Positions 19,783-64,000 of a DNA stretch of 64,000 nucleotides are shown here, one piece after another. The stretch covers positions 39,999 to 103,998 of the IMG/VR virus record IMGVR_UViG_3300035039_000082. One strand, given 5' to 3'. Within the stretch, counting starts at the first letter, position 1. The number at the start of each line of letters is the position of its first letter. A model generated the notes under the pieces. The model searched no databases and was not told the DNA's origin. It saw nothing but the letters and a program-made list of their open reading frames with translations. The DNA comes from a virus. The translations under genes and the position numbers were made by a program.

Positions 19783-19821
19783 AAACTAAACCGTTACATC
19801 TGAATAGGAGCAAAATATATA

Positions 19822-20250: not shown

Positions 20251-20391
20251 ATAATTCGTTATGTGAGAATATTAATATATTTTAATATTCTCACATATTT
20301 ATTTGCTTTTCATATTCTTAAATTATATATATAAATATTATTAATATATTTATATTTTTTTAATTTTAAGAATAAAGGAGGATATGAGTGC

Positions 20392-47475: not shown

Positions 47476-47518
47476 TATTGATTCTCTTAGAATAATATTT
47501 CTAAGAGAATCAATAATT
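47476..47518. terminator. Bidirectional hairpin between convergent genes
   Basis: ttattgattctcttagaa/ttctaagagaatcaataa. Confidence 0.6.
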
Positions 47519-47812
47519 TGTTAATAAATTATATAGTTCTTTTATTTCTTGATAACAATCCCATTTTTCATTCATATAATGAAAATTAATTGGATCAGAT
47601 ATTAATAACTCATAACATAATTCGTAACATGGATTATTAAAATGAACTATCCATACAGGTTTAGATATTATTAATTCTAATTGTAAATTAAATGGTATTT
47701 CTTTTTTCGCGCGTTTAGATTTATTTAATAACCAAAAAATACCATTAGTATATGTAATATCGTTAGTATTGTTTAATTTATAATATTGAATTTTATTTTG
47801 TGAGGAATTCAT
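47510..47812 (-). CDS. ELYEFL-tail family protein
   Basis: Ends CYQEIKELYNLLTNY. Confidence 0.65.
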   Translation of the reverse strand: MNSSQNKIQYYKLNNTNDITYTNGIFWLLNKSKRAKKEIPFNLQLELIISKPVWIVHFNNPCYELCYELLISDPINFHYMNEKWDCYQEIKELYNLLTNY

Positions 47813-48176
47813 ATAATTCTTTCACTTCTTGATAATAATCACATTCTGGATTGATATAATTAATAATAAAAATATCTTTATATAATGCTAATTGGCAAAT
47901 TTTAAAAGATGGATTTTTTATATATATAAAATAAGTTATATAATTTTTAACTATATACAATTGAATCTTTTTACAAGGATTTTTAATATATTTAACATTA
48001 TATGGATTATATTTAATACTAGCAAATTGACATCTCTCCGATGGAGTTTCAATATTTTCAATTAAATAATTATATTTATAAATAATTTTATATTGATCAT
48101 CTTCACAAAATTTATTTAAATCTAATTTAATTAATTTTCGATAATTATTTAATAATTGAGGAGTTAATCTTATCAT
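47793..48176 (-). CDS. ELYEFL-tail family protein with DUF4116-like repeats
   Basis: KYIKNP repeats; ends YYQEVKELYEFLTK. Confidence 0.7.
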   Translation of the reverse strand: MIRLTPQLLNNYRKLIKLDLNKFCEDDQYKIIYKYNYLIENIETPSERCQFASIKYNPYNVKYIKNPCKKIQLYIVKNYITYFIYIKNPSFKICQLALYKDIFIINYINPECDYYQEVKELYEFLTK

Positions 48177-48332
48177 TTTTTCTCCTTAAAAATTTAAAAA
48201 GTTTATATTAGTATTATAATTTATATATTAAATTTTAGAATATTAATTTAAGTTTTTTAAATAATTTTTTAAGCGGTAAAAAATAGATTCTTTTGTTGAA
48301 TTTTGCCGCTTTCAAAAATAGGAATAAATAAT

Positions 48333-49295
48333 ATGTTATCTGTTAATTCACTTTATCGCAATTTATATAAAGATAATTTTGATAGTCTTTATGAATCTAT
48401 ATTGAATGATTTTGATGTAGATAATATTAATCCATTATTCGAAGTATCAATTGATGCTCCTAGATATTTTAAACAATTAGAAATAGATTTAGATATATTC
48501 ACTCAGAAAGATTATAATAAAATTTCTCAAACTGAATTAAATAAAGTTACAAATAAATTATATAAAACTTTATCTAAGATATTAAATGTTGATGTCGGTT
48601 TATATATTGGTGATTTTAAAAATTGTATGATTTATCCACAATATTATTTTATAAAGAAAAAAGATATTAAATTTGATAAAAATAAAAAACCTATTTTAGA
48701 AGAATCTTTACTTAATATAAAAACTGCATATTTCTTTATTGATATTGAATTATTTATGTATAAATTAAAATTAACACCAGCAGAAATGGTTGGTATATTA
48801 CTTCATGAAATTGGTCATTTGACTTATCATAGAAATTTCATTACTAATTTTTTTGGCCAATTTTTATCAAGATTTAAAAATGTATTGATTATAAGTTCAA
48901 TTTTTTCATTTATTAAAATGACTTTATATGCTTTTTCTCCACAATTTATTGCTTTATTTTTATCTATTATTTTTTTATTTACTCGAACACTTTCATTTTT
49001 TGAACATAAACAAGAATATTATTGTGATAAATTTGCAACTAAATATGGTTATGGTGATGAAATAGCTAGTGCATTTATTAAATTAGGAAATTATACTAAC
49101 ACAGTTACTAAAACATCAAGAACATTATTTAAAAAAATAATTGATTTTATTAAAACAATTTTTAATTCATCCACTCATCCTGGAACGGTTAATCGAATTT
49201 GTACAATAGCTGAACAATTAAAAAAAGATTATATTAATAGTTATCCAAAAATAAAATCTACTCTTGAAAGAGATTTAAATAGATTAGGTTGTTAA
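48333..49295 (+). CDS. M48-like zinc metalloprotease with MLSxxxLY N-terminus
   Basis: LLHEIGH, EYYCDKFA, THP..VNR; ATG 48333. Confidence 0.75.
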   Translation: MLSVNSLYRNLYKDNFDSLYESILNDFDVDNINPLFEVSIDAPRYFKQLEIDLDIFTQKDYNKISQTELNKVTNKLYKTLSKILNVDVGLYIGDFKNCMIYPQYYFIKKKDIKFDKNKKPILEESLLNIKTAYFFIDIELFMYKLKLTPAEMVGILLHEIGHLTYHRNFITNFFGQFLSRFKNVLIISSIFSFIKMTLYAFSPQFIALFLSIIFLFTRTLSFFEHKQEYYCDKFATKYGYGDEIASAFIKLGNYTNTVTKTSRTLFKKIIDFIKTIFNSSTHPGTVNRICTIAEQLKKDYINSYPKIKSTLERDLNRLGC

Positions 49296-49387
49296 AGAAT
49301 CTAAATTTTGCCGCTTCCAAAAAAAAATAAAATAGGATAAGATAATAAAAATTATTTTATTATCTTATCCTATTTATAATTTCATTT

Positions 49388-49915
49388 TTACATTATTAAA
49401 AATTCATAAAATTCAATAACTCTTTTATAACAACAGCATTTATAATTAATATAATTTATTGAACTTGTTTTATAAATAATATATTGACAAGTTTCAAAAC
49501 TTGGATTTTGAAATACATTTTTCCAAAAAACATAATTATATATAAAATATTTAAAATTATTCACATATTTTATATTATAATTTATATTTATTAATAAACA
49601 ACTTTCAATAAATTTAGAATAATAAATAATGTTTTTATTTTCACTAATAATCCATAATAATTCATTTTGACAAGAAAGAAACATGTCATCAGTTGGATAT
49701 TTAATATATTTAATATTTATAGGATATTTTTTAATTCCTTTAATTATATAATCATTTATCCATTTTAATTCTTTTAGAATTGGTAAAATATTTCTTTTTT
49801 CTAATTCATAATAATATTCAAATGTTTCTTTAAAAAATAATTTTTGATCTTTTTCTAATTCATTTAATTGTTTTTTTAACATTTCATCTTGAATTTTACT
49901 TTGATAAAAATTCAT
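49388..49915 (-). CDS. ELYEFL-tail family protein
   Basis: Ends CYKRVIEFYEFLIM. Confidence 0.65.
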   Translation of the reverse strand: MNFYQSKIQDEMLKKQLNELEKDQKLFFKETFEYYYELEKRNILPILKELKWINDYIIKGIKKYPINIKYIKYPTDDMFLSCQNELLWIISENKNIIYYSKFIESCLLININYNIKYVNNFKYFIYNYVFWKNVFQNPSFETCQYIIYKTSSINYINYKCCCYKRVIEFYEFLIM

Positions 49916-50330
49916 ATAACTGTTTCACTTCTTCAAAACAATCACATTCTGGATTAATAAAACTCATTAAATCTTTTAATTTTTTATTATCATGTACTAA
50001 ATAAAATGCATGATAATCTTCTTTATTACTAAATGAATTAATTGTATTGAATAGAAATTCTTGACATACTTTATAAGTAGGATTTTTAATATAAGATATA
50101 TTAAATCCACTTTTATGTTTAGCTAAATATATAGATCTTGGAGTTCTAATAGCTAATAATTGTAATTCTTCATCAGGATTATCAATATATTTAATATTAG
50201 ATCCATCTTCTTTTATTAATCCAATAATTTCTTCTCGAGTCATTCTAGAACATATTTCTTTTTGTTCTAAAAATTTGTATTGATAATCTAATAAAGATTT
50301 AGATGAATTATAATATTTATGAGTATTCAT
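49896..50330 (-). CDS. ELYEFL-tail family protein with DUF4116-like repeats
   Basis: Ends CFEEVKQLYEFLSK. Confidence 0.7.
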   Translation of the reverse strand: MNTHKYYNSSKSLLDYQYKFLEQKEICSRMTREEIIGLIKEDGSNIKYIDNPDEELQLLAIRTPRSIYLAKHKSGFNISYIKNPTYKVCQEFLFNTINSFSNKEDYHAFYLVHDNKKLKDLMSFINPECDCFEEVKQLYEFLSK

Positions 50331-50346
50331 TATTTTAGACTATTTT

Positions 50347-50826
50347 TTAATATCTATTACTAATAGAATTTTTTGTCGCATTCACAATATCAGGAATAGA
50401 ACTTTGTATTGCCATAGCAAACATATCTTTAAAGAATGTAGCTGCTAATTTATTAGCTTTCTCTTCAAGAACTTTTTCAAATTTTTCTGATAACGCTGCT
50501 TTATATTCACCATCAATATATTCACTCCCAATTTGAAATTCAGGACTTTGAAAATGTTTTTCAAGTCGAGTAATAACAATATCTCGACATTGATTCCATA
50601 TAATAGCTCTGAAAGGAGATATTGGAGTTGTTAATTCTGAGATTTTATTATAATTATTTATACTTCTAATAGTAAAATTATTAGATGTAGTCTGGAAAAA
50701 TGCTTTAATTTCATTATTTATAAGTGTTTCAAATTTATCGTCTGGAATAAGATTAAAGAAATTTAATTTTACATTTTCTGTAATCTTCTCTTTAAGATCT
50801 TGCATATTCATCAGTTCATTAGTCAT
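50347..50826 (-). CDS. Hypothetical protein
   Basis: RBS aaggag, 159 aa. Confidence 0.65.
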   Translation of the reverse strand: MTNELMNMQDLKEKITENVKLNFFNLIPDDKFETLINNEIKAFFQTTSNNFTIRSINNYNKISELTTPISPFRAIIWNQCRDIVITRLEKHFQSPEFQIGSEYIDGEYKAALSEKFEKVLEEKANKLAATFFKDMFAMAIQSSIPDIVNATKNSISNRY

Positions 50827-50840
50827 ACTTTTTCTCCTTT

Positions 50841-51059
50841 TTACTTTATTAGAAATTCATAAAACTCTTTTATCTTTGGATATTCAGGATGATCAGTTCT
50901 AATAAATTGATAGTATTCTATATTATCATATAATACTTGTTGAATTACTTCAAAATTAACAAAATTATTTTTTAAATTATATTCAATAACTGGATCACGA
51001 ACTTTTTTAATTTTAAATGCAAAATTAATATATTCAATTGGTTTAGTAGAAGTAATCAT
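50841..51059 (-). CDS. ELYEFL-tail family protein
   Basis: Ends YPKIKEFYEFLIK. Confidence 0.65.
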   Translation of the reverse strand: MITSTKPIEYINFAFKIKKVRDPVIEYNLKNNFVNFEVIQQVLYDNIEYYQFIRTDHPEYPKIKEFYEFLIK

Positions 51060-51505
51060 ATTGTTAAATACTTATGCATTTGTTTAATTTCATTATAACA
51101 TTCAGTTTGACTTGAAATATAGTTTATTATATTAATGTCTTTATAAAGAAATTCTTGGTAGATTTTTAATGGTAGATTTTTAAAATAGAATATATTTTTT
51201 ATACTTCTGTAATGAATAAGCCCAGTAATAAATTTTTCTTCTGTAACTTTTTTATTTAAAATTATTTTTAATTTATCTTCATCAAATTTATTCATTAAAT
51301 ATAATCGTTCAATGTATTTACAGATTTTAATTCTTTTCATATTTATTAATTCAATTAAAAATTCTATATTTACTTGATTTAAAATGAATGATCTGTAATC
51401 ATAATTATATTCATTTAATAATTTATGAAATGTTTTAATATTATTTTTATTTCTTAATATACTTTTAATTCTTTTGTAATCGGCAGATTCTTTTCTTTTT
51501 GTCAT
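51056..51505 (-). CDS. ELYEFL-tail family protein
   Basis: Ends CYNEIKQMHKYLTI; KESADY shared with 51502. Confidence 0.65.
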   Translation of the reverse strand: MTKRKESADYKRIKSILRNKNNIKTFHKLLNEYNYDYRSFILNQVNIEFLIELINMKRIKICKYIERLYLMNKFDEDKLKIILNKKVTEEKFITGLIHYRSIKNIFYFKNLPLKIYQEFLYKDINIINYISSQTECYNEIKQMHKYLTI

Positions 51506-51942
51506 AATTTTAAAAACCTATAGTATTCTTTTATTTCATTATAATTTTTAGTATCTTCTGAAATATTCTCGAATATATTTATATTAGATTGAATTGCTTT
51601 AAAATAAACATATAATGGTAGATTTTCAAAATATTTTATTGATGCTTCCCACATATATGCTACTTTATTAATCCAGTCATTATGTGGATGTGGATATAAT
51701 AATTTACATAATATTTGAACTAATTTATCTTCATTAAACTTATTAATTAAATATCTTTGTTCAATATATTTAGTAGATTTATTAATATCTATTTCTATTA
51801 TTGATAATAATTTGTTTAAAGATAAACTATCTAATTTAAATTTTTCAACTTCATTAAAACAATTTAAATTTCGAATATATTGAATATAATCGTTTTTGTT
51901 TGATAATGCTTTTAAAAATTGATAATCGGCAGATTCTTTCAT
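51502..51942 (-). CDS. ELYEFL-tail family protein
   Basis: Ends YNEIKEYYRFLKL. Confidence 0.65.
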   Translation of the reverse strand: MKESADYQFLKALSNKNDYIQYIRNLNCFNEVEKFKLDSLSLNKLLSIIEIDINKSTKYIEQRYLINKFNEDKLVQILCKLLYPHPHNDWINKVAYMWEASIKYFENLPLYVYFKAIQSNINIFENISEDTKNYNEIKEYYRFLKL

Positions 51943-52109
51943 TATTTTCCTTTCTAAAAATATAAAATTTAAAAAAGTCTTATATTAATATAATTTATAT
52001 ATTAAATTTAAGAATCTTAAAAAAGAATCTACTTTTTCGCCGCTTCCAAAAAAAATAAAATAGGTGATAAGATATATAAATCTTATCATATCACCTATAG
52101 GTTTTAATA

Positions 52110-52406
52110 TTACACACTTTTCATATAATTATCAATTTCAGGACAATATTTCAAAAAAGCATATAATTGTGCTTCTTCTTTTGTATCAAATGTAATTCCT
52201 TTTAATTCTTTAATCCAATATTTTTTAGTATCTTCAATATATTGGTATGTATATTTATTTTCAAATTCTTTTAACATTTTAATAACGGTATATATATTTG
52301 AAATTTGGTCTGCATTATAAAATAATGCATTGATAATATGTTTGGTAATTCTATTATTTTCCAAAGTAGGGATTTTAAGTTCGATATATTTGTATTCATC
52401 TGCCAT
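52110..52406 (-). CDS. Hypothetical protein
   Basis: RBS gaggag. Confidence 0.6.
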   Translation of the reverse strand: MADEYKYIELKIPTLENNRITKHIINALFYNADQISNIYTVIKMLKEFENKYTYQYIEDTKKYWIKELKGITFDTKEEAQLYAFLKYCPEIDNYMKSV

Positions 52407-52434
52407 GATTTTTATTCTCCTCTTTATTTATTTA

Positions 52435-52647
52435 TTAATTATCTAATGGAAATATTTCATCTAATGTTTTATTTTGATCGTAATCTTTTTCAGAATCCAT
52501 AAATTTTTTAATATTTTCGTTATTAATTATAATATCCATTTGTTCTAATTCATTAAAACATTCATTACAAATGTATCCATGATTTTCTGAATATCTAATA
52601 CATAAAATAGTTTTACAACCTTTTCTATTACAAGCTCTGTTACTCAT
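52435..52647 (-). CDS. Small Cys-rich protein
   Basis: CNRKGC...C...ICNEC. Confidence 0.6.
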   Translation of the reverse strand: MSNRACNRKGCKTILCIRYSENHGYICNECFNELEQMDIIINNENIKKFMDSEKDYDQNKTLDEIFPLDN

Positions 52648-52669
52648 ATTATTCTCCTTTTTTTATTAA

Positions 52670-52870
52670 TTATTTAAGACTATGTCGTTTAATAAAATCA
52701 ATATCCTCTTTAATTTCTTTATCTGAATAATCAACATGTTGATTATCTATAATTTCATTAACTGTTTTTTCAATTAATTCAATTGCTTTTTTTGGTTTTT
52801 TCATAACAATACTGGCTCCACCTAAAATTAATCCAAGTTGAGTACCAGTTACTAAGTATCTGTTAGCCAT
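52670..52870 (-). CDS. Small hypothetical protein
   Basis: RBS aaggag. Confidence 0.6.
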   Translation of the reverse strand: MANRYLVTGTQLGLILGGASIVMKKPKKAIELIEKTVNEIIDNQHVDYSDKEIKEDIDFIKRHSLK

Positions 52871-52943
52871 GATTTTTATTCTCCTTATTTAGATAGTTAA
52901 AAATTCTTTAATAATCTATTTTTCGCCGCTTCCAAAAATAATT

Positions 52944-53282
52944 TTATTTCCTTTCTAATGGATCACCACAAAACTCACAACAATCACATGATGGATCATG
53001 AATCTTATGATACATACAAAATCCAAATGGACTTTTAGGACAGTCCCATTCTGTTGAGATATAATACCATTCAATTTCTTCATCAATTTCAGGATATTCT
53101 TTTCCATCTCTATCTCTATACATTAATTTATATCCTATTCTATCTAATTCTTCTTTAGCTATTTCATAAATATATTCACTTAATACACTAATTTGATTAT
53201 AGACTTGTTCAATTTTCTTTTTAATTTCTTCTTGTTCATATTTAACAATTTCTATTTCATTAAGTATTTCATTATTTCCCAT
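52944..53282 (-). CDS. Protein with C-terminal Cys-rich zinc-binding motif
   Basis: WDCPKSPFGFCMY...CDCCEFCGDPLERK. Confidence 0.65.
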   Translation of the reverse strand: MGNNEILNEIEIVKYEQEEIKKKIEQVYNQISVLSEYIYEIAKEELDRIGYKLMYRDRDGKEYPEIDEEIEWYYISTEWDCPKSPFGFCMYHKIHDPSCDCCEFCGDPLERK

Positions 53283-53404
53283 TATTTTTATTCTCCTTTA
53301 TTTAAAGATTGTATGAATAATAAATCTAAAGAATATTAATAGAACACAAAACATACAAAAAACAATAACATCAGACATTATTTATTCTCCATTTTTAGAT
53401 TTTT

Positions 53405-53716
53405 TCATAGAGTTAAAAATTGATATAACTCTTTTAATTCATTATAATCTTCTCTAGTTTTATTTATAAAGAAGAAGTAATATGATGATAAATATATAAA
53501 TTTTTTTAATACTTTAAATTTTAAGAAATTTTTATTATCATTAATAATAATATTTATAGCATGTTTATTTAATTTTAATTCGCTATCTAATGTTATTAAA
53601 TTTATAAATTGAATATTAATTTTATTAGATTCATTTTTAATTTTATTAATATATTCTTTAGAGATATTTCTTTTATCAATATAATATTCACCACCATGAG
53701 TAAACATTTTTATCAC
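53405..53716 (-). CDS. ELYEFL-tail family protein
   Basis: Ends YNELKELYQFLTL. Confidence 0.65.
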   Translation of the reverse strand: MIKMFTHGGEYYIDKRNISKEYINKIKNESNKINIQFINLITLDSELKLNKHAINIIINDNKNFLKFKVLKKFIYLSSYYFFFINKTREDYNELKELYQFLTL

Positions 53717-53718
53717 CT

Positions 53719-54195
53719 TTACATAGTTAAGAATTCATATAATTCATATACTTTTGGAAATCTTTTAATATCCACATATTGAATTGCATTTGGATCTTTT
53801 CTAATAGCTTCAAGACAGAGTTCTTCTGTTTGATTTTTAACATATTGTAATGATGATCCATCTTTTTTAACAGCTTCTAAACATATCTCTTCTGTTTGAT
53901 TTTTAACAAATTGTAATGATGATCCATCTTTTTTAACAGCTTCAAAACATATCTCTTCTGTTTGATTTTTAACAAATTTTAATGCATTTTCATTTTCTTT
54001 TACAGCTTCCATACAAATTTGTTCTGTTTTATTTTTAACATATTGTAATGCCCACCCATTTTGTCTTATAGCATCAATACATATCTCTTCTGTTTGATTT
54101 TTAACATATTGTATTAACAAGCCACTTTCTTTAACTTTTCTTAAACAATAATCTTTATCATACCATTTTAAAAGTTTTTCTTTCGTATAATACAT
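53719..54195 (-). CDS. DUF4116 repeat protein with ELYEFL tail
   Basis: Tandem LQYVKNQTEEICLEAVK repeats; ends KVYELYEFLTM. Confidence 0.8.
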   Translation of the reverse strand: MYYTKEKLLKWYDKDYCLRKVKESGLLIQYVKNQTEEICIDAIRQNGWALQYVKNKTEQICMEAVKENENALKFVKNQTEEICFEAVKKDGSSLQFVKNQTEEICLEAVKKDGSSLQYVKNQTEELCLEAIRKDPNAIQYVDIKRFPKVYELYEFLTM

Positions 54196-54682
54196 ATTTT
54201 TATTCCTTTCTAAAAGATAAAAATTTTTATTCTATATTTATTATTTATATATAAATCTGTTGAATCTTAAATAAGTTAAAACTCTTTTAATTTTCTAAAA
54301 TTTTCAACAATTTTAACTTATAATATAGACGTGTAAATTCTTATGAATATTAATTTAATTCTATTTTTGACTCTTTAAAATAATTTTAATTTCTGAATTT
54401 TTATTTTTTAGGACGGGATAAAAACAAGATTCTTTTTAGATTAATTAGATCTTTTTGGTAAGCGGCAGATTTTAAAATTTTGCTACTTTAGAAAATTTAA
54501 AAATCTTTAAATGATAACTTTAACCTTGGTGGGAAATTGCTCACCAAACTGAGTGAAAATTTAGATTTATCTTTAAAAAACTCTATTTAATTTTAAATAA
54601 TTTTATTTTTATTCTTAAAAACTCTTTAATAATCTATTTTTCGCCGCTTCCAAAATAAAATAAATTAATAAAAAGGTGTTTT

Positions 54683-54880
54683 ATGATTTCTACAAATAAC
54701 ATATTCCTTGAAGCATTAAATCCTACTATTAAAAAATCTTTTATTCAATCTGGTAAATTATTAGGTGCTGGAGCTGGTTTAGGGATTTCTAGTGTGGGGA
54801 AAACATTAGATTATTCAGGTAAAAAATTATATGATAAATTATCAGATAAGAATCAAAAAGATAATCAAAATAAAAAATAA
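54683..54880 (+). CDS. Small Gly-rich protein with MISxxxIF N-terminus
   Basis: MISTNNIF; LLGAGAGLG. Confidence 0.55.
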   Translation: MISTNNIFLEALNPTIKKSFIQSGKLLGAGAGLGISSVGKTLDYSGKKLYDKLSDKNQKDNQNKK

Positions 54881-54947
54881 TTTAAATCTTTCTTATTAAT
54901 TCTCTTTTACAAGAACTAATAAGAAAGATTTATTTATTATATTCTTT

Positions 54948-55559
54948 TTAATATTTAACTCTAAAACATAAATATTGAATTACATAATTATATTCTTCTT
55001 CATTTTTAAAATTATCTGGATCTAAATGCCATTCATTAATCCAAGATTCTTCTTCTTTGTTTTTAATAATATCAGACCACATATCAAATGTTTGATTTTT
55101 AATTAATTGATGAATAAATTTTTTACCTTCAATATCTTTTTTTAATACTCCTTCTTTAATATTATCATTAATATTATTTAATCTCTTTTTCATACTTTTA
55201 ATTTTTTCAATATCTTTTTTTAATTGAACAAACATTTTATAATAATCTTCAATTAATATTTCTTTATCAATCTTAAAATATATTGTGAATCGATATTTAT
55301 TATTAATTTTCTTTAATTTATATGAATCTATAATATCTTTGTATTTATGATTCTTTAATAATTGATCTAATTTTTCTTCTAATTGATATGTATAATTTTT
55401 TATTCCCCACCAACAATATCGATATAGACCATTCTTTAATATATTAGAATCAATACCATTGTAAGCTTTATAATAATTAAAATATCTATTAATTTCATTA
55501 CTAATATCATTTCGAATTGCAATTATTTTTTTTTGAAGATTTTTATTTAAGATTTGCAT
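54948..55559 (-). CDS. Hypothetical protein
   Basis: 203-aa ORF. Confidence 0.6.
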   Translation of the reverse strand: MQILNKNLQKKIIAIRNDISNEINRYFNYYKAYNGIDSNILKNGLYRYCWWGIKNYTYQLEEKLDQLLKNHKYKDIIDSYKLKKINNKYRFTIYFKIDKEILIEDYYKMFVQLKKDIEKIKSMKKRLNNINDNIKEGVLKKDIEGKKFIHQLIKNQTFDMWSDIIKNKEEESWINEWHLDPDNFKNEEEYNYVIQYLCFRVKY

Positions 55560-55594
55560 TTAATTATTAATTCAATATAATTTAATTTTATCAT

Positions 55595-56452
55595 TTAAAT
55601 TAAATGATCAATTTGAGTATCAATATGTTTTTTTAATTCTTTAAATTGATTTTCTATATCTGATTGAGATACTAATTCAGTTTTGAATTGATCTAATGTT
55701 TGATCTATTGTTTCTAACAAATTATTATTTTCATCAATATTTTGATCTATTGTTTCTAACAAATTATTATTTTGAATAATATTTTGATCTATTGTTTCTA
55801 ACAAATTATTATTTTGAATAATATCATTTTTAATATCTCCGATATCATTTTCAAAATCATTAATTCGATCATCTAAATCACTAATGTTATTTTCAAGATC
55901 ATCAATTCGATCATCTAAATGATCAATTTTTTCAATAAGAATATTTAATTTATTATTTATATTTTCTATTAATTCTTGTTTCTTTTTTGATGAAATAATA
56001 AGATCAGTTTTTATTATTTTAGGTTCGATAATTGGTTCTGAGTCTTTTTTTGTAAGTGTTTTTAGTAAATCTTTTTCTGATTCATTAATCAAATATTTTT
56101 CTTGAATTATATAATATTCTCCATCAATATCTACTTTATATTTATAATCTATTTTAGTATCACTTTCAGAATATCTTTGTTCAATAATAATTCCTTTAGG
56201 ATAATCTGTAGTATAAATAGTATCATTAATATTATATTTAAATTGATACATCATTTCTAATTCATTAATTTCTTCTTGCCCAATAATATCTTTTTCAAAA
56301 ATATTTAAAATCATATCTCTATTACATTTAATATCATATGTAATTTGTAAAACTCCATTCTTATTAAAAATAATATGTCTTTTGAATATTTTTCCAGATA
56401 CTTCAATTGGATTTTTAATTGAGATAGTATCATTGAGATTGTATTTAAACAT
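55595..56452 (-). CDS. Protein with C-terminal heptad coiled coil
   Basis: LDDRIDDLE and NNNLLETIDQ repeats; RBS aaggag. Confidence 0.7.
   Translation of the reverse strand: MFKYNLNDTISIKNPIEVSGKIFKRHIIFNKNGVLQITYDIKCNRDMILNIFEKDIIGQEEINELEMMYQFKYNINDTIYTTDYPKGIIIEQRYSESDTKIDYKYKVDIDGEYYIIQEKYLINESEKDLLKTLTKKDSEPIIEPKIIKTDLIISSKKKQELIENINNKLNILIEKIDHLDDRIDDLENNISDLDDRINDFENDIGDIKNDIIQNNNLLETIDQNIIQNNNLLETIDQNIDENNNLLETIDQTLDQFKTELVSQSDIENQFKELKKHIDTQIDHLI
55699..55824. repeat. Three tandem 42-nt coding repeats
   Basis: tttgatctattgtttctaacaaattattatttt unit repeated three times. Confidence 0.85.
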
Positions 56453-56466
56453 TTTGTTCTCCTTTT

Positions 56467-56763
56467 TTATATCTTTAAAAATTTATATAATTCCATCACA
56501 TCATTATAACAATTATATTTTTTACATTTGTTCTTATCAAAATTATAATTAAAATATTTTAAATTTTTAGTTAATAATGATTGCCACATATTAAATGTAT
56601 GATGGTGAATTATTTTTATATATTTTGGATGTTTATCAATAATATCTTCTTGTAATTCAATTGGTAATTGATTAATAATACGTTTATAGTTATTTGTTAT
56701 ATGATAAAATCCATTATCACAACAATAATATAATTTTTGAAGATCTTCTGAATATTTAGACAT
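56467..56763 (-). CDS. ELYEFL-tail family protein
   Basis: Ends CYNDVMELYKFLKI; close paralog of 56767. Confidence 0.7.
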   Translation of the reverse strand: MSKYSEDLQKLYYCCDNGFYHITNNYKRIINQLPIELQEDIIDKHPKYIKIIHHHTFNMWQSLLTKNLKYFNYNFDKNKCKKYNCYNDVMELYKFLKI

Positions 56764-56766
56764 TTT

Positions 56767-57087
56767 TTATACCTTTAAGAAATTATATAATTCTATTACT
56801 TCATTATAACAATTATATTTAAAACAATTATCTTTATTTAAATATTTAAACCATTTTAAATTTTTAGATAATAATATTTGCCACATATTTAATGTATGGT
56901 GATAGATTAAATGAATTTTAGTTGGTGTACGTGAAATAAGATTTTCTTGTAATTCAATAGGTAATTGATTAATTGATTGAACATGAAGATCATTTTTAAT
57001 ATTACCATCTCTAAAAGGACAAGATCGAAAAAATTGATATATTAATTGAATTTGAAATGGGTATTTAGAAATATCTATATTGATCAT
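56767..57087 (-). CDS. ELYEFL-tail family protein
   Basis: Ends CYNEVIELYNFLKV. Confidence 0.7.
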   Translation of the reverse strand: MINIDISKYPFQIQLIYQFFRSCPFRDGNIKNDLHVQSINQLPIELQENLISRTPTKIHLIYHHTLNMWQILLSKNLKWFKYLNKDNCFKYNCYNEVIELYNFLKV

Positions 57088-57108
57088 GTTTTCTCTTTTC
57101 TTATATAG

Positions 57109-57408
57109 TTATATAGTTAAATATTTATACAATTCATATAGTTTATAATACTCTGGATGTTCTTTATTAATATGTTTAAATAATTTTGGATTTAAATATA
57201 ATAAATTTTGCAAAGTTTCAAATTTAAATCTATAATTATATCGCATAAATACTCTTCGGTCATCTATTTTAGATTGATTATAATAATCATAAATAGGTGC
57301 GCATTTAATATTTATAAAAACCATTGTTTTTGTTATTTCTTTATTTTGATATTTATTAATTTGTTTAATAATATAATCTTCATATTCTTCGATAGTTATA
57401 AATTTCAT
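57109..57408 (-). CDS. ELYEFL-tail family protein
   Basis: Ends YYKLYELYKYLTI. Confidence 0.7.
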   Translation of the reverse strand: MKFITIEEYEDYIIKQINKYQNKEITKTMVFINIKCAPIYDYYNQSKIDDRRVFMRYNYRFKFETLQNLLYLNPKLFKHINKEHPEYYKLYELYKYLTI

Positions 57409-57731
57409 AATGTTAAAAACATATATAATTCATATAATTCTTGATAATATTTATGAGTTAAATCAATACATTGAATTATTTCTGGCTTTTCATATATTAA
57501 ATTAGATAAAATATTATAATCTAATTTATGTTGATGTTCATCTAATACTTCATTTTTTAATGTGGGATTACTATAATTAACATATGATGGATTATTTATA
57601 TAATATATACCTTCATTATATGATAGTATAATATAAATTATTTTATTAATACAATTTATATTATTATAATAATAATCGCGTAATAAATTATCTAATTTAT
57701 TTATAGGATCTAAATCATATAATTTTATCAT
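57405..57731 (-). CDS. ELYEFL-tail family protein
   Basis: Ends YYQELYELYMFLTL. Confidence 0.7.
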   Translation of the reverse strand: MIKLYDLDPINKLDNLLRDYYYNNINCINKIIYIILSYNEGIYYINNPSYVNYSNPTLKNEVLDEHQHKLDYNILSNLIYEKPEIIQCIDLTHKYYQELYELYMFLTL

Positions 57732-58183
57732 AATGTTAGAAATTTATATAATTCTTTAACTTGTTTTTGTAATTCATAATCATTACTTGGTATAGTTATA
57801 TATTTATAATAATTAATATTTCTTATTAATAACCATTCACATAATTCATAAGATGGATATTTAATATATCTTAGTAACTTATTATGAGCAGTTATATAAG
57901 TTATATATAACCAATTCGATATAAATAATTTAACAAATTCTTTATTATCGATATTATAATTATATAATTTTGCAATTAAGTTAATAATTTTATAATCATA
58001 TCCTCGATATAAAGTATCAATTATATCAAATTGTTTTTGAATCGGCAAATTCTTGAATGAAGACTTATTATTAACAATAATATTTTTTGAATATAAAAAT
58101 TCATCTGTATTATAATTTGTTTTATTTAATATATATTCATTAAGTATTTTATAGTCAACACCATTTATCACATATTTATTCAT
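57728..58183 (-). CDS. ELYEFL-tail family protein
   Basis: Ends QKQVKELYKFLTL. Confidence 0.7.
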   Translation of the reverse strand: MNKYVINGVDYKILNEYILNKTNYNTDEFLYSKNIIVNNKSSFKNLPIQKQFDIIDTLYRGYDYKIINLIAKLYNYNIDNKEFVKLFISNWLYITYITAHNKLLRYIKYPSYELCEWLLIRNINYYKYITIPSNDYELQKQVKELYKFLTL

Positions 58184-58460
58184 TTTATATCCTTAGTGTT
58201 TTGAAAATTATATATAATCTCGCCGCTTCCAAAATAAATAATCTTTAGCCATATTTTATTCTCCTTTTTTATATTCTTTTAATATTATAATTTATATATG
58301 TAATCTTATAATATTAAAAATTTATAAAAAATAAAAAGAGAGTAATTATGATTTTTAAATGGATAACAAATATTGGATTGGGTATAGGATTGTTTATTAA
58401 TTATATTTTAAATATCTTTAAAAATAAAAATTAGTGAAATAATATAAATTCACTAATTTA

Positions 58461-58778
58461 TTATAGAATTAAGAATTCAAATAACTCTTTTAATTCTTTA
58501 TAATATTTATGATTCTCATTAATATTTTGTATTAAAAATTTATTATGATAAATTAATTTTGACAATATTTCATAATCTAATAGATGTTGATTTTCTTTTA
58601 ATATATTACTTTTAATTTCAATATTATATTTGCCAAAATCACAAGGTTTAATATTAAATTTTATATTGTCAATTATTAAATCTATTATACAATTAAATGT
58701 ACGATCATCTTTATTTCCATTATTGTAATCATTTATTAATTTTTCAATTATATTTTTATTATAATTTTGTGAATTCAT
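58461..58778 (-). CDS. ELYEFL-tail family protein
   Basis: Ends YYKELKELFEFLIL. Confidence 0.7.
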   Translation of the reverse strand: MNSQNYNKNIIEKLINDYNNGNKDDRTFNCIIDLIIDNIKFNIKPCDFGKYNIEIKSNILKENQHLLDYEILSKLIYHNKFLIQNINENHKYYKELKELFEFLIL

Positions 58779-59278
58779 ACTGTCAAAAACTCATATAATT
58801 CTTTTACTTGCTTTTTTATTTTTGAATTTTTAAAATCAAAATATTTAAAATAACCTAAATGTTTATATAATAACAATTCCCATATTTCATAAGAGAAACT
58901 ATTTGCATAATGTGCTACCATTTTAAAATGTGAAAAATAATTAATTGTATTAAATATTAATCTAAATATTTCTTCTGGAATTTTATTATTATCATATAAT
59001 TCAAAAATTAAATATACAAAATCATCATAATTATGGACATAATCATATCTGTTTATAGTTAGAATATATTCAATTAAATTATATTGTTTTTGAATCGGCA
59101 GATTTTTGAATCTAATATCATCATAAATTGAAATTTGATATTTATTGAGTACTGTTTGAATATTAATATCATCTTCTTCACTAATAATTTCAAATTCATA
59201 GCTTTTAGAATTTATTAATTCATTTTGGTTAATCATATTAAAATATTTATTTAAAGAATCTATATCTTTTTTGTTCAT
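58775..59278 (-). CDS. ELYEFL-tail family protein
   Basis: Ends KKQVKELYEFLTV. Confidence 0.7.
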   Translation of the reverse strand: MNKKDIDSLNKYFNMINQNELINSKSYEFEIISEEDDINIQTVLNKYQISIYDDIRFKNLPIQKQYNLIEYILTINRYDYVHNYDDFVYLIFELYDNNKIPEEIFRLIFNTINYFSHFKMVAHYANSFSYEIWELLLYKHLGYFKYFDFKNSKIKKQVKELYEFLTV

Positions 59279-59712
59279 ATTGTTAAAAACCTATATAACT
59301 CATCAATTTTAGTTTGTAATTCATTATTTGTAATATACAAACTATAATATAAAAATTTATTATAATATAATAATTGTTGATAATCTTCAAAAGTTAAATA
59401 TTCAGAATAATAAATTAAAATATTATTTGTTTCATTTGCTGATAAATTTTGCAATATTAAATTCAATATTTCTATTGGAATATAATTATCATATATTTGT
59501 GTAATAAATTTTGCAAATATATCATAATACATAATATTTTTTACTAAAAATAACATAAAATCATATTGTATATTAATTGATAATTTTTTGAATTTTATAT
59601 CTGAATAAAAATAATCACTATTAATTTTACTTTCAATTCTATCATCGACATAATCATAAGTTGTATTATTATTTATTTGTTCAACAATTAATTCATATTC
59701 TTTTTGTATCAT
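59275..59712 (-). CDS. ELYEFL-tail family protein
   Basis: Ends QTKIDELYRFLTI. Confidence 0.7.
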   Translation of the reverse strand: MIQKEYELIVEQINNNTTYDYVDDRIESKINSDYFYSDIKFKKLSINIQYDFMLFLVKNIMYYDIFAKFITQIYDNYIPIEILNLILQNLSANETNNILIYYSEYLTFEDYQQLLYYNKFLYYSLYITNNELQTKIDELYRFLTI

Positions 59713-59772
59713 ATGAAACCTTATTTTTCATAAGTTTGAAATTTTATAAATTCTGCCGCTTCCAAAATAATA

Positions 59773-60114
59773 TTAAATAGTAAGAAATTCATATAACTCT
59801 TTTAATTGTTGATAATTTTTATGATTCTTATTAATTTTGTTAATTATACTTGGATATCTATATAATAATCTTGACAATATATTATAATCTAAATATTCTT
59901 GATAATTATTTAATAAATGATTTTTAATTTTAATTTCACTATACTTTGTATAAGTAGTATTATCTGGAATAGCTTGATAACTATTATTAGAAAATATATA
60001 ATTGGTAACTTTTTTAATATATTCAAGATTATTTTTATCAGAATTATAATCTCTTAATAAAGATTCAAATACACCTCTTGTGATATATTCATATTTTATT
60101 CTATTTTTATTCAT
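59773..60114 (-). CDS. ELYEFL-tail family protein
   Basis: Ends YQQLKELYEFLTI. Confidence 0.7.
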   Translation of the reverse strand: MNKNRIKYEYITRGVFESLLRDYNSDKNNLEYIKKVTNYIFSNNSYQAIPDNTTYTKYSEIKIKNHLLNNYQEYLDYNILSRLLYRYPSIINKINKNHKNYQQLKELYEFLTI

Positions 60115-60398
60115 ATTGTCAAAAACTCATATAACTCTTTTAATTTTTTATAATCTTTATGATCTTCTTTAATACATTTTATTATTTCAGGATTATAATA
60201 TAATAATCTTGATAATATATCATAATTTAATAAACTTTGATGTTTTAATAATAATGTATTTTTAATAATAATTTCATGATTATCAAAAACTTCAGCAGGA
60301 GCAGGTATAAATGTATAATCATTAAAACTTAATATATAATTAAATAGGGTATCAATATTATCTTTTTTATATTTAGTTATATTATTAATTATATTCAT
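60111..60398 (-). CDS. ELYEFL-tail family protein
   Basis: Ends YKKLKELYEFLTI. Confidence 0.7.
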   Translation of the reverse strand: MNIINNITKYKKDNIDTLFNYILSFNDYTFIPAPAEVFDNHEIIIKNTLLLKHQSLLNYDILSRLLYYNPEIIKCIKEDHKDYKKLKELYEFLTI

Positions 60399-60841
60399 AC
60401 TGTCAAAAACTCATATAATTCTTTTAATTCTTTTTTATGTGGATGATCTTCTTTAATAATTATATATTTATAATATTTAGGATTTAAATATATTAACCAT
60501 TGGTACATATTAAAAGATAATGATTGATTAGAAGTTATTAAAAATGTTTTCATTAATATATGATTTTTCTTCTTTTGAAATAATAATTGCAATATATCTT
60601 CTGGAATAAAATCATCATATAATATATTTAATAATTCAATAAACATTTGATCATATATTCTAATATCATTTAATATCATAATTATATTTTTCTGTATATC
60701 ATAATTATATTCTTGAAAATTTTGTCCATATTGAGTATTATTTTGAATGTAATTTAAAAATTTTTGTTTTGCAAATTGAACGTGCATTCGATAATTCTCT
60801 GTAATAAAATTTTGCATAGCATCCCATTGTGTTTTATTCAT
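60395..60841 (-). CDS. ELYEFL-tail family protein
   Basis: Ends HKKELKELYEFLTV; promoter motif ~60875-60905. Confidence 0.7.
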   Translation of the reverse strand: MNKTQWDAMQNFITENYRMHVQFAKQKFLNYIQNNTQYGQNFQEYNYDIQKNIIMILNDIRIYDQMFIELLNILYDDFIPEDILQLLFQKKKNHILMKTFLITSNQSLSFNMYQWLIYLNPKYYKYIIIKEDHPHKKELKELYEFLTV

Positions 60842-60922
60842 ATTATTTCCTTTTTAAATTATAAAAGATTATTTATATTATTTATATATTAAATTTGACA
60901 ATATTAAATAAAAATAGGATAT

Positions 60923-62087: not shown

Positions 62088-62136
62088 TTAAATAATTTGC
62101 CGCTTTCAAAAAATTAAATAGGAATTATTATATATT

Positions 62137-62961
62137 ATGAGTTATAAATTAACAAAGCAATTTATAAATCGTTCAATCACAGTAAATCAAATTCCAGCCG
62201 AAGCATTAGAACGAATGGTTACTGTTACTAACGAGACTGAAAAATTTAATTTAACTATTGATACAGTCCAGAATGGGGATACTGTATATCAATCAGATAC
62301 AAAATTAATGTATCGAGTTATAGATCATAATAATTTAGATAATTCAGCTGGGTATCAAGTTTATAATGGGGCGGTTTATTGGAATAATGTAAGAGAAAAA
62401 CCATTTGAAATAGTTGAAAATGAAAATAATTTTACTATAGCAGGTGGAACAGACAATGAGAAAACCTTAACTGTTGATGAAACAAAATCTATTTCTAGTA
62501 AAGTAGATAAAGTTACGGGGTCTTCTTTAGTAGTAGATACAGAAATTTCTAAGATCCACACCCAAAACACCGACACCAGCCTTGACCTTGGTGGTACTAA
62601 CCCTGTCACTGCTGCCGAGCTTGCAACACTGAGAGACACGACTGTTCCGGCCAAAGTCGACAAACTTATCCTCGAAACCGCAGAAAAAACAGCCGATTAC
62701 ACCCTGGCTGACGGCGATCAAGATAAGATTGTCCTGATGAACAAAACCGGGGCAGCGAACTTGACAGTACCCACAAATGCAGCAGTGGCATTTTCAATAG
62801 GCACAATCATCGGTGTTTACAACATTTCATCTGATGCTGTAACCATCGCTGGTGATGCTGGTGTGACTGTTCGCAATGCCGGTGACCTGGCCCAGTATGG
62901 CGAAGTGTCGCTCAGGAAAAGAGCAACGGATGAATGGGTGTTGGCGGGAGCTGTGTCATGA
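62137..62961 (+). CDS. Putative tail fibre/virion protein, compositionally mosaic
   Basis: C-terminal TADYTL..D....V.MN....LTVP......G....GVTV domain; GC content rises from ~62560. Confidence 0.65.
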   Translation: MSYKLTKQFINRSITVNQIPAEALERMVTVTNETEKFNLTIDTVQNGDTVYQSDTKLMYRVIDHNNLDNSAGYQVYNGAVYWNNVREKPFEIVENENNFTIAGGTDNEKTLTVDETKSISSKVDKVTGSSLVVDTEISKIHTQNTDTSLDLGGTNPVTAAELATLRDTTVPAKVDKLILETAEKTADYTLADGDQDKIVLMNKTGAANLTVPTNAAVAFSIGTIIGVYNISSDAVTIAGDAGVTVRNAGDLAQYGEVSLRKRATDEWVLAGAVS

Positions 62962-64000
62962 GATTAAGAAGAGCGTCAATATTAAATGCTGGATTGCTTC
63001 CACCAACAAATGTAACTGCAGAAGTATCTGGATCAGATATTATTGTATCTTGGACAGCAGCAAATTTTGTAGACGGCTACCACGTGTATCAGCAGATCGA
63101 TGGCGGCACCTGGACCAAACTCAACGCCACGGCAACGACTGACCTGACATATACCCTGACCCCAACCGAACCCGGCGAGTATAACTTTTACGTCACAAGT
63201 GTCCGTGGCACAAAAGAGTCTGCCCCGTCTGCTGAGACGCTGCTTGATGATGTCTTTTATTTCGCTGTCAACTCCACCCAAACCATCAGTGGCCTATTCT
63301 CCACCACCGGAGAAATCACAGTCCATTGGGGCGACGGAACAAGCAACACCTATAACGGTACAGATCAAGCATGGTCCAAGGATTACGGATCAGCAGTTGA
63401 CGAACTGGTTGTGATAGAAGGGTCAGATTATATCACTAAATTCACAATGTACCAAAGTGGTGCTGACATCTCCTTTGATTTAGGACACTTGCCTACAAAC
63501 TTGACGTACTTCCTCTGCTACGGATCGAACACCATTAGTGGGTCTTTAGCTGACCTTCCAAGTGGCCTGACGTACTTCAACTGCACCGGATTGAACACTG
63601 TGAGTGGGTCTTTAGCTGACCTTCCGGCTGGTCTGACGATCTTCAACTGCTACGGATCGAATACCGTCTCAGGATCTTTAGGTGACCTTCCGAGTGGCCT
63701 GACGTACTTCCTCTGCCAAGGATTGAATACCGTGAGTGGGTCTTTGGCTGACCTTCCAAGTGGCCTGACGTACTTCAACTGCTACGGATTGAATACCATC
63801 GACACCTATACAACCCGTACATGGACCACTAAGCCTTCTACTTTTGTATTCGTTCCAGTATCTCCGGGTGGCCTCTCTGAAACAGAAATCAACCAGCTTT
63901 TAGTGGATCTGGATGAAGACCTGGAGTGGACATCTGGAACTATTACGTTGACAGGAACCAATGCAGCACCGACTGGAGTAGGGCTTACGGCAGCGAATAA
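62958..64000 (+). CDS. Putative receptor-binding protein: FN3-like, PKD-like and LRR regions (3' truncated; not in ORF track)
   Basis: ATGA overlap; open frame to window end; PPTNVTA..VSW..YHVY, VHWGDG, 22-aa DLPSGLTYFxCxGxNTVSGSL repeats. Confidence 0.8.
   Translation, partial: MRLRRASILNAGLLPPTNVTAEVSGSDIIVSWTAANFVDGYHVYQQIDGGTWTKLNATATTDLTYTLTPTEPGEYNFYVTSVRGTKESAPSAETLLDDVFYFAVNSTQTISGLFSTTGEITVHWGDGTSNTYNGTDQAWSKDYGSAVDELVVIEGSDYITKFTMYQSGADISFDLGHLPTNLTYFLCYGSNTISGSLADLPSGLTYFNCTGLNTVSGSLADLPAGLTIFNCYGSNTVSGSLGDLPSGLTYFLCQGLNTVSGSLADLPSGLTYFNCYGLNTIDTYTTRTWTTKPSTFVFVPVSPGGLSETEINQLLVDLDEDLEWTSGTITLTGTNAAPTGVGLTAAN
63486..63800 (+). repeat. 66-nt (22-aa) LRR tandem repeats, four full and one partial
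   Basis: Units start at 63486, 63552, 63618, 63684 and 63750. Confidence 0.9.

What the first reader, a model, noticed from the sequence alone, without database searches (positions are those of the whole stretch)
47510..60841. Twenty small, divergent proteins all ending in the same ELYEFL(T/K/I)x helix: candidate C-terminal address tag and shufflable cassette array
Seen: 20 minus-strand ORFs of 72-175 aa with highly variable N-termini end in I-x(4-6)-Y-x-x-[LVI]-[KY]-E-L-Y-E-F-L-[TKIS]-[ILVKM]-stop; 19 of 20 stop two residues after the FL position. The 3' DNA is also conserved (plus strand tcata.tgt.aaaaac.catataa.tc near 58775, 59275, 60111, 60395). Many are chained by ATGA stop/start overlaps behind the bipartite promoter. 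Some bodies carry DUF4116-like helical repeats. Inference, three alternatives: (1) a sorting signal delivering a variable effector library to one place, such as a phage compartment, membrane or host machine; (2) a docking motif for a hub protein, since LxxFL resembles clamp-binding motifs like the T4 gp45-binding LDFL tail; (3) a conserved 3' cassette end giving translational coupling and homology for shuffling. I know of no description of this.
Basis: partly seen in the sequence, partly recalled or inferred. Interest (0 to 1): 0.87.

Follow-up and report, generated by a model that had tools for sequence, protein, structure and literature searches.

The report
Phage gene family sharing one end-cap helix
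An uncultured AT-rich oil-field phage carries at least 23 small paralogous genes whose shared ELYEFLT ending is the predicted last helix of a conserved 45-residue DUF4116-type repeat module, not a detachable address tag. It is a real but fairly ordinary lineage-specific gene-family expansion.

Summary
Twenty minus-strand ORFs at window 47510-60841 end in ..ELYEFLT[ILV]; 19 stop two residues after FL. Three more lie elsewhere on the 109-kb contig, and a near-identical strain has three beyond the contig end.

The conserved part is about 45-50 residues, not 8. A profile of it retrieves DUF4116 proteins through profile positions 2-36. The last seven positions have no counterpart there.

AlphaFold2 places the tail helix one 22-residue period after the last repeat helix. 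The whole model overlays longer DUF4116 solenoid models (TM 0.86-0.93). The tail is therefore best read as a terminal half-repeat cap.

A tail-only HMM finds it on paralogs only, never on unrelated proteins. Synonymous codons in the tail are no more uniform than genome codon usage predicts (0.707 against 0.727), so the DNA-cassette idea fails.

The array is accessory. A more distant relative lacks the whole 11-gene block and several other members.

Whether the constant module also docks on a common partner is untested; I give it about 0.2. The scan has noted DUF4116 gene pairs and arrays before on other DNA.

Verdict: new variant of a known kind, moderate interest.

The parts
60395..60841 (-). 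member, 148 aa, body type A, tail KELYEFLTV; first gene of the 11-gene block
   Evidence: AF2 model pLDDT 81.4, tail helix 136-147
60111..60398 (-). member, 95 aa, body type B, tail KELYEFLTI; ATGA overlap with the upstream gene
59773..60114 (-). member, 113 aa, body type B, tail KELYEFLTI; ATGA overlap
59275..59712 (-). member, 145 aa, body type A, tail DELYRFLTI; preceded by the GGAAGCGGC motif at 59755-59763
58775..59278 (-). member, 167 aa, body type A, tail KELYEFLTV; ATGA overlap
58461..58778 (-). member, 105 aa, tail KELFEFLIL; ATGA overlap
57728..58183 (-). member, 151 aa, body type A, tail KELYKFLTL; preceded by the GGAAGCGGC motif at 58222-58230
57405..57731 (-). member, 108 aa, body type B, tail YELYMFLTL; ATGA overlap
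57109..57408 (-). member, 99 aa, tail YELYKYLTI; ATGA overlap
56767..57087 (-). member, 106 aa, body type C, tail IELYNFLKV
56467..56763 (-). member, 98 aa, body type C, tail MELYKFLKI; last gene of the 11-gene block that relative L010 lacks
53719..54195 (-). member, 158 aa, canonical DUF4116 solenoid (six 22-aa repeats) plus tail YELYEFLTM; 180 aa in strain L002, 71 aa in L010
   Evidence: Pfam E 5.5e-42; AF2 pLDDT 92.3; fold matches TM 0.86-0.93
53405..53707 (-). member, 100 aa from the ATG (103 aa from the GTG at 53716), tail KELYQFLTL
51502..51942 (-). member, 146 aa, body type D, tail KEYYRFLKL; preceded by both intergenic motifs
51056..51505 (-). member, 149 aa, body type D, tail KQMHKYLTI; ATGA overlap; split into 69 + 73 aa ORFs in L010
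50841..51059 (-). member, 72 aa, tail KEFYEFLIK; ATGA overlap; no L010 ORF has it as best blastp match
49896..50330 (-). member, 144 aa, weak DUF4116 repeats in the body, tail KQLYEFLSK
49388..49915 (-). member, 175 aa, tail IEFYEFLIM; 20-nt overlap with the upstream gene; absent in L010
47793..48176 (-). member, 127 aa, DUF4116-like body (PHROG 5925, E 1.9e-14), tail KELYEFLTK
47510..47812 (-). member, 100 aa, tail KELYNLLTNY, the one member with three residues after the L; absent in L010
48303..49295 (+). non-member: M48 zinc peptidase gene embedded in the array on the opposite strand; position conserved in L010
   Evidence: Pfam PF01435, E 4.6e-11; 96% aa identity in L010

Best explanation
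The genes are a lineage-specific expansion of small all-helical accessory proteins. At least 23 copies lie on this 109-kb contig, and at least 26 are inferred for the phage.

All copies share a C-terminal module of about 45 residues, which consists of one DUF4116-type two-helix repeat, a short linker with a conserved Tyr, and a final helix [LIV]-K-E-L-Y-x-F-L-T-x.

That final helix is the first helix of a truncated last repeat. It lies one repeat period after the preceding helix A and packs on the last full repeat as a C-terminal cap. In it the small core residues of internal repeats (C, A, V) are replaced by larger ones (V/I/L, L, Y, F, L).

The family grew by tandem duplication, including two-gene A-B units, and its N-terminal bodies diverged into at least five types. 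Selection acts on the protein, not on the DNA.

The genes are dispensable and turn over quickly between related phages. Most likely they are variable binders used in phage-host interaction, with the constant module as the fold nucleus and perhaps a shared handle.

Shown here: paralogy, the DUF4116 relationship of the module, the predicted in-register helix, protein-level constraint, and gain and loss between relatives. Inferred: burial of the helix, tandem-duplication history, and the binder role.
For: Family and significance:
- 23 tail hits at E <= 0.007, all at ORF ends, with noise starting at E 0.15.
- Conservation extends over about 50 residues; 47 non-redundant members across all data.

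DUF4116 link:
- The module profile run against 1.84 billion proteins finds small proteins matched end to end at their C-termini. It also finds long proteins with 3-13 stretches matching profile positions 2-36 only. Ten of ten long hits tested are Pfam DUF4116.
- A profile built from the 16 members that lack a canonical DUF4116 signal still scores those proteins above shuffles: 16 of 110 reach 15 bits against 0 of 550 shuffles. It never uses positions 44-50.

Structure:
- w53719 model, pLDDT 92.3: helix A starts at residues 14, 36, 58, 80, 102 and 124. The tail helix spans 147-157, with pLDDT about 96-97 over the last blocks.
- The model aligns over residues 1-158 with longer DUF4116 solenoid models at TM 0.86-0.93 and rmsd 1.5-2.3 A. 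Foldseek against AFDB gives E 2e-9.
- In w60395 the tail helix 136-147 has pLDDT about 94.

Protein rather than DNA constraint: among same-residue pairs in the tail, codon identity is 0.707 observed against 0.727 expected.

Turnover:
- Strain L002 is colinear, with a repeat-number change in the DUF4116 gene.
- Relative L010 keeps the flanks at 78-96% aa identity but has about 190 bp in place of the 4.4-kb 11-gene block. It also lacks or shortens other members and has one extra.

Binder role: DUF4116 relatives are fused to U-box and IBR domains, consistent with a protein-binding scaffold.
Against: - I had no model coordinates, so burial of the tail residues is inferred from register, pLDDT and whole-length superposition. 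It was not measured.
- Small canonical DUF4116 proteins such as P0031 and P0048 end without such a helix, so the cap is not a general need of the fold.
- The tail is the most conserved part of the family: E-8, Y-6, F-4, L-3 and T-2 carry 2.9-3.5 bits against about 1-2.5 bits in the repeat part. About two thirds of the helix circumference is conserved. That is more than a simple cap needs and hints at an extra shared function.
- The body of type A (w60395) does not resemble DUF4116 solenoids in fold search (TM <= 0.5). Common descent of whole proteins, as opposed to the module, is therefore not shown.
- No expression or functional data exist; no RNA run holds this DNA.
Confidence: 0.68

Rival explanations
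1. Adapter library. The constant C-terminal module, with the ELYEFLT helix as its key surface, docks every family member onto one common phage or host hub protein. The variable N-terminal bodies recruit or block different targets. The logic resembles poxvirus ankyrin-PRANC or F-box proteins. The helix may still be part of the fold.
For: - The tail is the most conserved feature across 47 non-redundant members.
- It is specific to this clade and absent from canonical DUF4116 proteins.
- The C-terminus position is nearly fixed at 2-3 residues after L.
- Bodies are diverse, at least five types.
- DUF4116 repeats elsewhere are combined with U-box and IBR modules, so the scaffold is used in adapter architectures.
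Against: - No hub has been identified.
- The tail is never found apart from the repeat module.
- It is predicted as a confident in-register fold element, not a linker-attached peptide.
- The only complex test run, w60395 with w60111, gave no verdict.
- The sequence does not fit a PIP-box or a beta-clamp motif by inspection (my reading, not a tool test).
Confidence: 0.2
2. Sorting or degradation signal. The free C-terminal ...FLT[ILV]-COOH is read by a transport, packaging or protease system, which sends the whole library to one compartment or limits its lifetime. One candidate is the M48 peptidase embedded in the array.
For: - The stop codon position is nearly invariant.
- An M48 peptidase gene sits inside the array, and its position is conserved in relative L010.
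Against: - The M48 gene is on the opposite strand, with its own signals and a terminator hairpin.
- No unrelated protein carries the tail.
- The tail is predicted helical and ordered, unlike known C-terminal degrons or export tags (general knowledge).
- The stop position is also fixed by simple paralogy. In 20% GC DNA any read-through would meet a stop within a few codons.
Confidence: 0.06
3. DNA-level cassette end. The conserved 3' coding sequence is kept as a homology patch for unequal crossing-over, or as a translational-coupling signal. The protein tail would be a by-product.
For: - Eight ATGA overlaps between members.
- Array content differs between relatives, and two-gene units appear duplicated.
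Against: - Synonymous codon identity in the tail is 0.707 against 0.727 expected from genome codon usage. The tail uses varied Glu, Phe, Leu and Thr codons, for example 7 of 20 GAG at the first Glu column and 4 of 20 TTC at the Phe column.
- Only 10 of the 22 members tabulated end in TGA; the rest end in TAA.
- The big indel relative to L010 has its ends in intergenic DNA, not in two tails.
- Paralogs are old, with at most 53% aa identity.
Confidence: 0.04

Closest known systems
Pfam PF13475 DUF4116 repeat proteins (alpha-solenoids of untested function; also PHROGs 5925, 17056, 25923)
   Same: One member is a canonical DUF4116 protein (141.5 bits). The family's C-terminal module retrieves DUF4116 proteins through its repeat part. 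The repeat has the same 22-residue two-helix period. The w53719 model overlays DUF4116 models at TM 0.86-0.93.
   Different: Nine of the ten members scanned against Pfam gave no DUF4116 hit even at E <= 1, and seven of ten gave no DUF4116-type PHROG hit. The terminal ELYEFLT helix has no counterpart in canonical DUF4116 proteins. The proteins are very short, with one recognisable repeat plus cap in most. The type-A body does not match the DUF4116 fold.
Capping repeats of helical repeat proteins, for example the special C-caps of natural and designed armadillo and ankyrin repeat proteins
   Same: It is a terminal, sequence-distinct half or full repeat that covers the hydrophobic core of the last internal repeat. 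The weak PDB matches of the w53719 model are to designed helical-repeat and armadillo proteins with engineered caps.
   Different: The PDB similarity is not significant (best E 0.12).
Lineage-specific expansions of small proteins in large phages, for example about 35 zinc-ribbon copies in Bacillus phage G (Iyer et al. 2021, PMC7824862)
   Same: There are many tandem paralogs of a small domain in one large phage genome, with unknown accessory function, read as adaptation to biological conflict.
   Different: The fold is different (helical repeat rather than zinc ribbon). This family combines a constant C-terminal module with variable bodies.
Poxvirus ankyrin-repeat/PRANC (F-box-like) host-range proteins
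   Same: The architecture is analogous: a multigene viral family with variable repeat bodies and a constant C-terminal element.
   Different: This is analogy only (my knowledge, not tested). There is no sequence or fold relation, no ubiquitin system in bacteria, and no partner known here.

Membership tests
Pfam DUF4116 (PF13475) | Pfam HMM match above the gathering score of 24.9 bits | tested here: inconclusive
   Met by w53719-54195 (141.5 bits). The other nine members scanned gave no DUF4116 hit even at E <= 1.
Pfam DUF4116 (PF13475) | Reciprocal profile relationship: the family profile retrieves DUF4116 proteins as repeated matches | tested here: met
   Long hits carry 3-13 stretches on profile positions 2-36. 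Ten of ten tested are DUF4116. This holds for a profile without the canonical members, compared with shuffles. That target set had been picked by the fuller profile, so it is partly circular.
Pfam DUF4116 (PF13475) | 22-23-residue two-helix repeat forming an alpha-solenoid | tested here: met
   For w53719: helices at a 22-residue period, pLDDT 92.3, and TM 0.86-0.93 to DUF4116 models. For w60395, only the last module has this pattern. The whole model matches only generic helical repeats.
Portable C-terminal targeting or docking tag | The same short tail occurs on otherwise unrelated proteins | tested here: not met
   The tail-only HMM finds 23 ORFs, and every one also carries the upstream repeat module. 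No other ORF scores below E 0.15.
Portable C-terminal targeting or docking tag | The tail is a flexible or linker-attached peptide outside the folded domain | tested here: not met
   It is predicted as a helix with pLDDT 94-97, one repeat period after helix A, and is included in whole-length superpositions on longer solenoids. This rests on predictions only.
Portable C-terminal targeting or docking tag | A receptor or hub that binds the tail | not testable with these tools
   The host is unknown. The single complex job (a type-A member with a type-B member) gave no verdict.
Recombination cassette with conserved DNA ends | Synonymous sites in the shared end are more conserved than codon usage predicts | tested here: not met
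   Observed 0.707 against expected 0.727 over 1,527 same-residue codon pairs.
Sliding-clamp-binding C-terminal motif (T4 gp45-type, PIP-box, beta-clamp QLxLF) | Consensus motif on an extended C-terminal peptide, plus a clamp partner | not tested
   By inspection the tail fits neither Qxx[LIM]xx[FY][FY] nor QL[SD]LF (my knowledge of the motifs). A clamp-loader-like AAA+ gene lies beside the second small cluster (L004). No binding test was run.

The most novel reading that the evidence does not exclude
The constant 45-residue module ending in ELYEFLT is a clade-specific docking handle. It plugs a library of 26 or more variable small helical proteins into one phage or host hub. This would be a bacterial-virus counterpart of the 'variable repeat body plus constant C-terminal adaptor' design of poxvirus ANK-PRANC or F-box families. 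The array would serve as a rapidly exchangeable set of specificities.
Probability: 0.2. Interest if true: 0.7.

Novelty: new variant of a known kind. Interest (0 to 1): 0.36.

Why it matters
The finding gives a concrete, checkable reading of about 20 orphan genes, close to 10 kb of coding sequence in the 64-kb window, in a deeply divergent oil-field phage. They are DUF4116-derived mini-solenoids with a specialised end cap.

DUF4116 is a large virus-rich family with no solved structure and no tested function. A clade of 70-170-residue members with a strongly conserved cap could be good material for a first structure.

The family also offers a test of whether such phage repeat families work as binder libraries. 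If the constant module proved to be a shared docking handle, it would be a new organising principle for phage accessory genes. As it stands, this is one more lineage-specific expansion.

Tried and rejected
- Complex prediction of the translationally coupled pair w60395 + w60111: no verdict, score 0.00, partner fold uncertain. This is evidence neither way.
- A 19-residue canonical DUF4116 repeat HMM built from long hits detects only w53719 strongly, and w47793, w49896 and g19175 weakly. It is too short to see the divergent members.
- The module profile run against the members' own bodies gives only w49896 clearly (E 4e-6).
- Foldseek against the PDB: nothing significant, best E 0.12 to designed helical repeats. 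AFDB and Atlas searches for w60395: generic helical repeats only.
- dN/dS between this phage and strain L002: many array genes are 100% identical and the rest are mosaic, so there is no usable signal of positive selection.
- Metagenome and species-genome pattern scans found no further relatives (error, 45, 81). The word-index search found only close homologues.
- Text searches: no paper contains ELYEFL. DUF4116 appears only in a modelling paper as a predicted alpha-solenoid.
- The small ORF in L010 at the deletion junction, with a YELLDYL-like stretch, is not a family member.
- Relatives could not be drawn for a virus record.


Full report
**Setting**

The window is bases 39999-103998 of a single 109,263-bp contig. 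Its GC content is about 20%. It encodes split multisubunit RNA polymerase pieces, an NAD-dependent ligase and an intein-bearing protein. Genes have Shine-Dalgarno sites and ATGA overlaps.

The best phage matches to its RNAP subunit are only 23-26% identical, and the tools treat the contig as a virus record. Near-identical DNA occurs in oil-field metagenomes from 24 studies; none of the listed runs is RNA. This is therefore a large, deeply divergent, uncultured phage whose assembly is probably incomplete.

**Observation**

Nineteen of 20 stop two residues after FL.

I ran a 14-residue tail HMM on all 1,743 six-frame segments of the contig. It separates 23 ORFs (E <= 0.007) from noise (E >= 0.15), and every hit lies at an ORF's C-terminus.
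- The three extra members form a second small cluster upstream of the window, at G000 19175-21639. It sits beside a clamp-loader-like AAA+ gene and a metallophosphatase.
- A 94%-identical strain, L002, has three further members just beyond the point where our contig ends.

The phage therefore has at least 26 members.

**What is conserved**

The conserved part is not just the tail. Alignment of the last 50 residues shows a module:
- a segment of the form h-x-[FY]-E-h-[CY]-Q-x-L-L-Y-x-[ND]-P-x-h-[FI]-x-[YF]-I;
- a 6-10-residue linker with a conserved Tyr;
- the terminal helix.

Over 47 non-redundant members from all data, the most informative columns are E-8, Y-6, F-4, L-3 and T-2, at 2.9-3.5 bits. 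The repeat part carries about 1-2.5 bits.

**Relation to DUF4116**

A profile of the module was run against 1.84 billion representative proteins and gave 163 hits of two kinds.
- Small proteins (57-190 aa) matched over profile positions 1-50, ending at their last residue. These are the family itself, in this phage and related AT-rich contigs.
- Long proteins (200-1,000 aa) with 3-13 separate stretches, most matching only positions about 2-36.

Ten of ten long hits tested are Pfam DUF4116, some fused to U-box or IBR domains. A stricter profile built only from the 16 members with no canonical DUF4116 signal still scores these proteins well above shuffled controls. It never uses its last seven positions. 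That target set had been selected by the fuller profile, so this check is partly circular.

One member, w53719-54195, is an outright DUF4116 protein (E 5.5e-42). Two others hit the DUF4116-type PHROGs 5925, 17056 and 25923, always short of the tail.

So the module is one DUF4116 repeat plus a clade-specific terminal helix.

**Structure**

AlphaFold2 on w53719 gives pLDDT 92.3. It predicts six two-helix repeats with helix A starting at residues 14, 36, 58, 80, 102 and 124. The tail helix spans 147-157, one 22-residue period further on, and pLDDT over the last blocks is about 96-97. The protein ends where the next helix B would begin.

The model aligns over residues 1-158 with longer DUF4116 solenoid models at TM 0.86-0.93 and rmsd 1.5-2.3 A. 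Foldseek against AFDB gives E 2e-9. Because the whole length superposes on solenoids that continue, the tail helix must occupy the place of a regular repeat helix.

In register, the invariant Glu of the tail falls on the conserved Glu of helix A. The small core residues C, A and V/I of internal repeats fall on V/I/L, L and Y of the tail. That is what a terminal cap with nothing beyond it would need. This last point is my inference; I had no coordinates.

In w60395 (pLDDT 81.4) the last module has the same helix-helix-linker-helix layout, with the tail at pLDDT about 94. Its body, however, resembles only generic helical repeats. There is no significant PDB match, and the literature has only a predicted alpha-solenoid for DUF4116.

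**Protein or DNA constraint**

Among pairs of members with the same residue at a tail position, codon identity is 0.707. The expectation from this genome's codon usage is 0.727. Glu, Phe, Leu and Thr codons vary freely. Only 10 of the 22 members tabulated end in TGA, and only eight member-to-member junctions are ATGA overlaps. The conserved 3' DNA is thus a by-product of protein conservation in a genome with very skewed codon usage.

**Evolution of the array**

Paralogs are old, with the best pair at 53% identity. Bodies without the module fall into at least five groups plus singletons. Two-gene A-B units appear duplicated.

Strain L002 keeps the order. It shows a mosaic of 100%-identical and 83-96%-identical genes, and one extra 22-residue repeat in the DUF4116 gene.

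A more distant relative, L010, has flanking genes at 78-96% aa identity. It differs as follows:
- about 190 bp of unrelated DNA replace the whole 4.4-kb block w56467-w60841;
- w49388, w47510 and w50841 have no counterpart among its ORFs;
- two members are shortened and one is split;
- it has one member that we lack.

A third, unrelated contig, L006, chains three 76-82-aa members. Another, L007, has a single DUF4116-plus-tail gene in a different genomic context. No member was found in 185,579 prokaryote species genomes.

The family is therefore accessory, fast-turning and confined to a group of uncultured AT-rich phages.

**Interpretation**

The best-supported reading is a lineage-specific expansion of DUF4116-derived mini-solenoids whose shared ending is the capping half-repeat of the fold. 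The tail is not a portable tag, because it never occurs without the repeat and never on a non-paralog.

Two things go beyond a plain cap. Small canonical DUF4116 proteins do without such a helix, and the tail is the most conserved part of the family. A shared function of the constant module, such as docking on a common partner, therefore stays open; I give it about 0.2. The one complex test I could run gave no verdict.

**Novelty**

DUF4116 pairs and arrays in phages and bacteria have been noted before in this scan, and PHROGs lists such families as unknown. Large paralog expansions in big phages are known, for example the phage G zinc ribbons (PMC7824862). What is new is the clade-specific conserved cap and the size of the expansion. 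I rate it a new variant of a known kind, of moderate interest.

Noticed in passing
window 62112-64000, continuing to about 65254 in window numbering (G000 about 102110-105252): About 3.1 kb with 43% GC, in a 20% GC genome, is present here but absent from the otherwise colinear strain L002. It encodes at least two ORFs (62137-62961 and 62934-63998 onward); the second has a fibronectin type III domain. It looks like a recent insertion of foreign DNA.
   Followed up: partly
window 3712-4927 (+): A separate small paralog family of four ORFs (76, 83, 134 and 98 aa) ends in ..IFAYMS..IFEYLI..IFEYF and ..TFEYLT. The ELYEFL tail HMM does not hit them, so they are not a 'dialect' of this family by that test.
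   Followed up: partly
window-wide; in the array at 59755-59763, 58222-58230, 54643-54651, 52925-52933, 52039-52047, 49310-49318: GGAAGCGGC (one mismatch allowed) occurs 26 times against 0.41 expected. In the array it lies 4-5 nt upstream of a TATA-like box, before w59275 and w57728. Elsewhere it is often on the strand opposite to the genes, so a simple promoter role does not fit every site.
   Followed up: partly
window 60880-60895, 51993-52008, 48219-48234 (-) and seven other sites: AATTTAATATATAAAT (one mismatch allowed) occurs 10 times against 0.65 expected. It precedes three units of the array as well as regions that another reader flagged as ncRNA genes. It is a likely promoter class.
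   Followed up: no
window 48303-49295 (+), hairpin at 49331-49374: A membrane-type M48 zinc peptidase gene sits inside the array on the opposite strand, followed by a 20-bp-stem bidirectional terminator-like hairpin. The gene and its position are conserved in relative L010 (96% aa identity).
   Followed up: no
window 55595-56452 (-): A 285-aa protein has tandem NNNLLETIDQNI-type coiled-coil repeats. It is 266 aa and only 70% identical in strain L002 and 227 aa in L010, which makes it a length-polymorphic hotspot next to the array.
   Followed up: no
window 53719-54195 (-); L002:16295-16837; L010:3140-3355: The canonical DUF4116 member changes repeat number between relatives: 158 aa here, 180 aa in L002 (one extra 22-residue unit) and 71 aa in L010. 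The tail stays the same.
   Followed up: yes
G000 19175-21639 (+), upstream of the window; L004: A second small cluster of three tail-bearing genes is interleaved with a metallophosphatase and lies next to a clamp-loader-like AAA+ gene.
   Followed up: partly
window 5-1438 (+): The first ORF carries an intein splicing domain (Pfam PF14890, E 3e-16).
   Followed up: no
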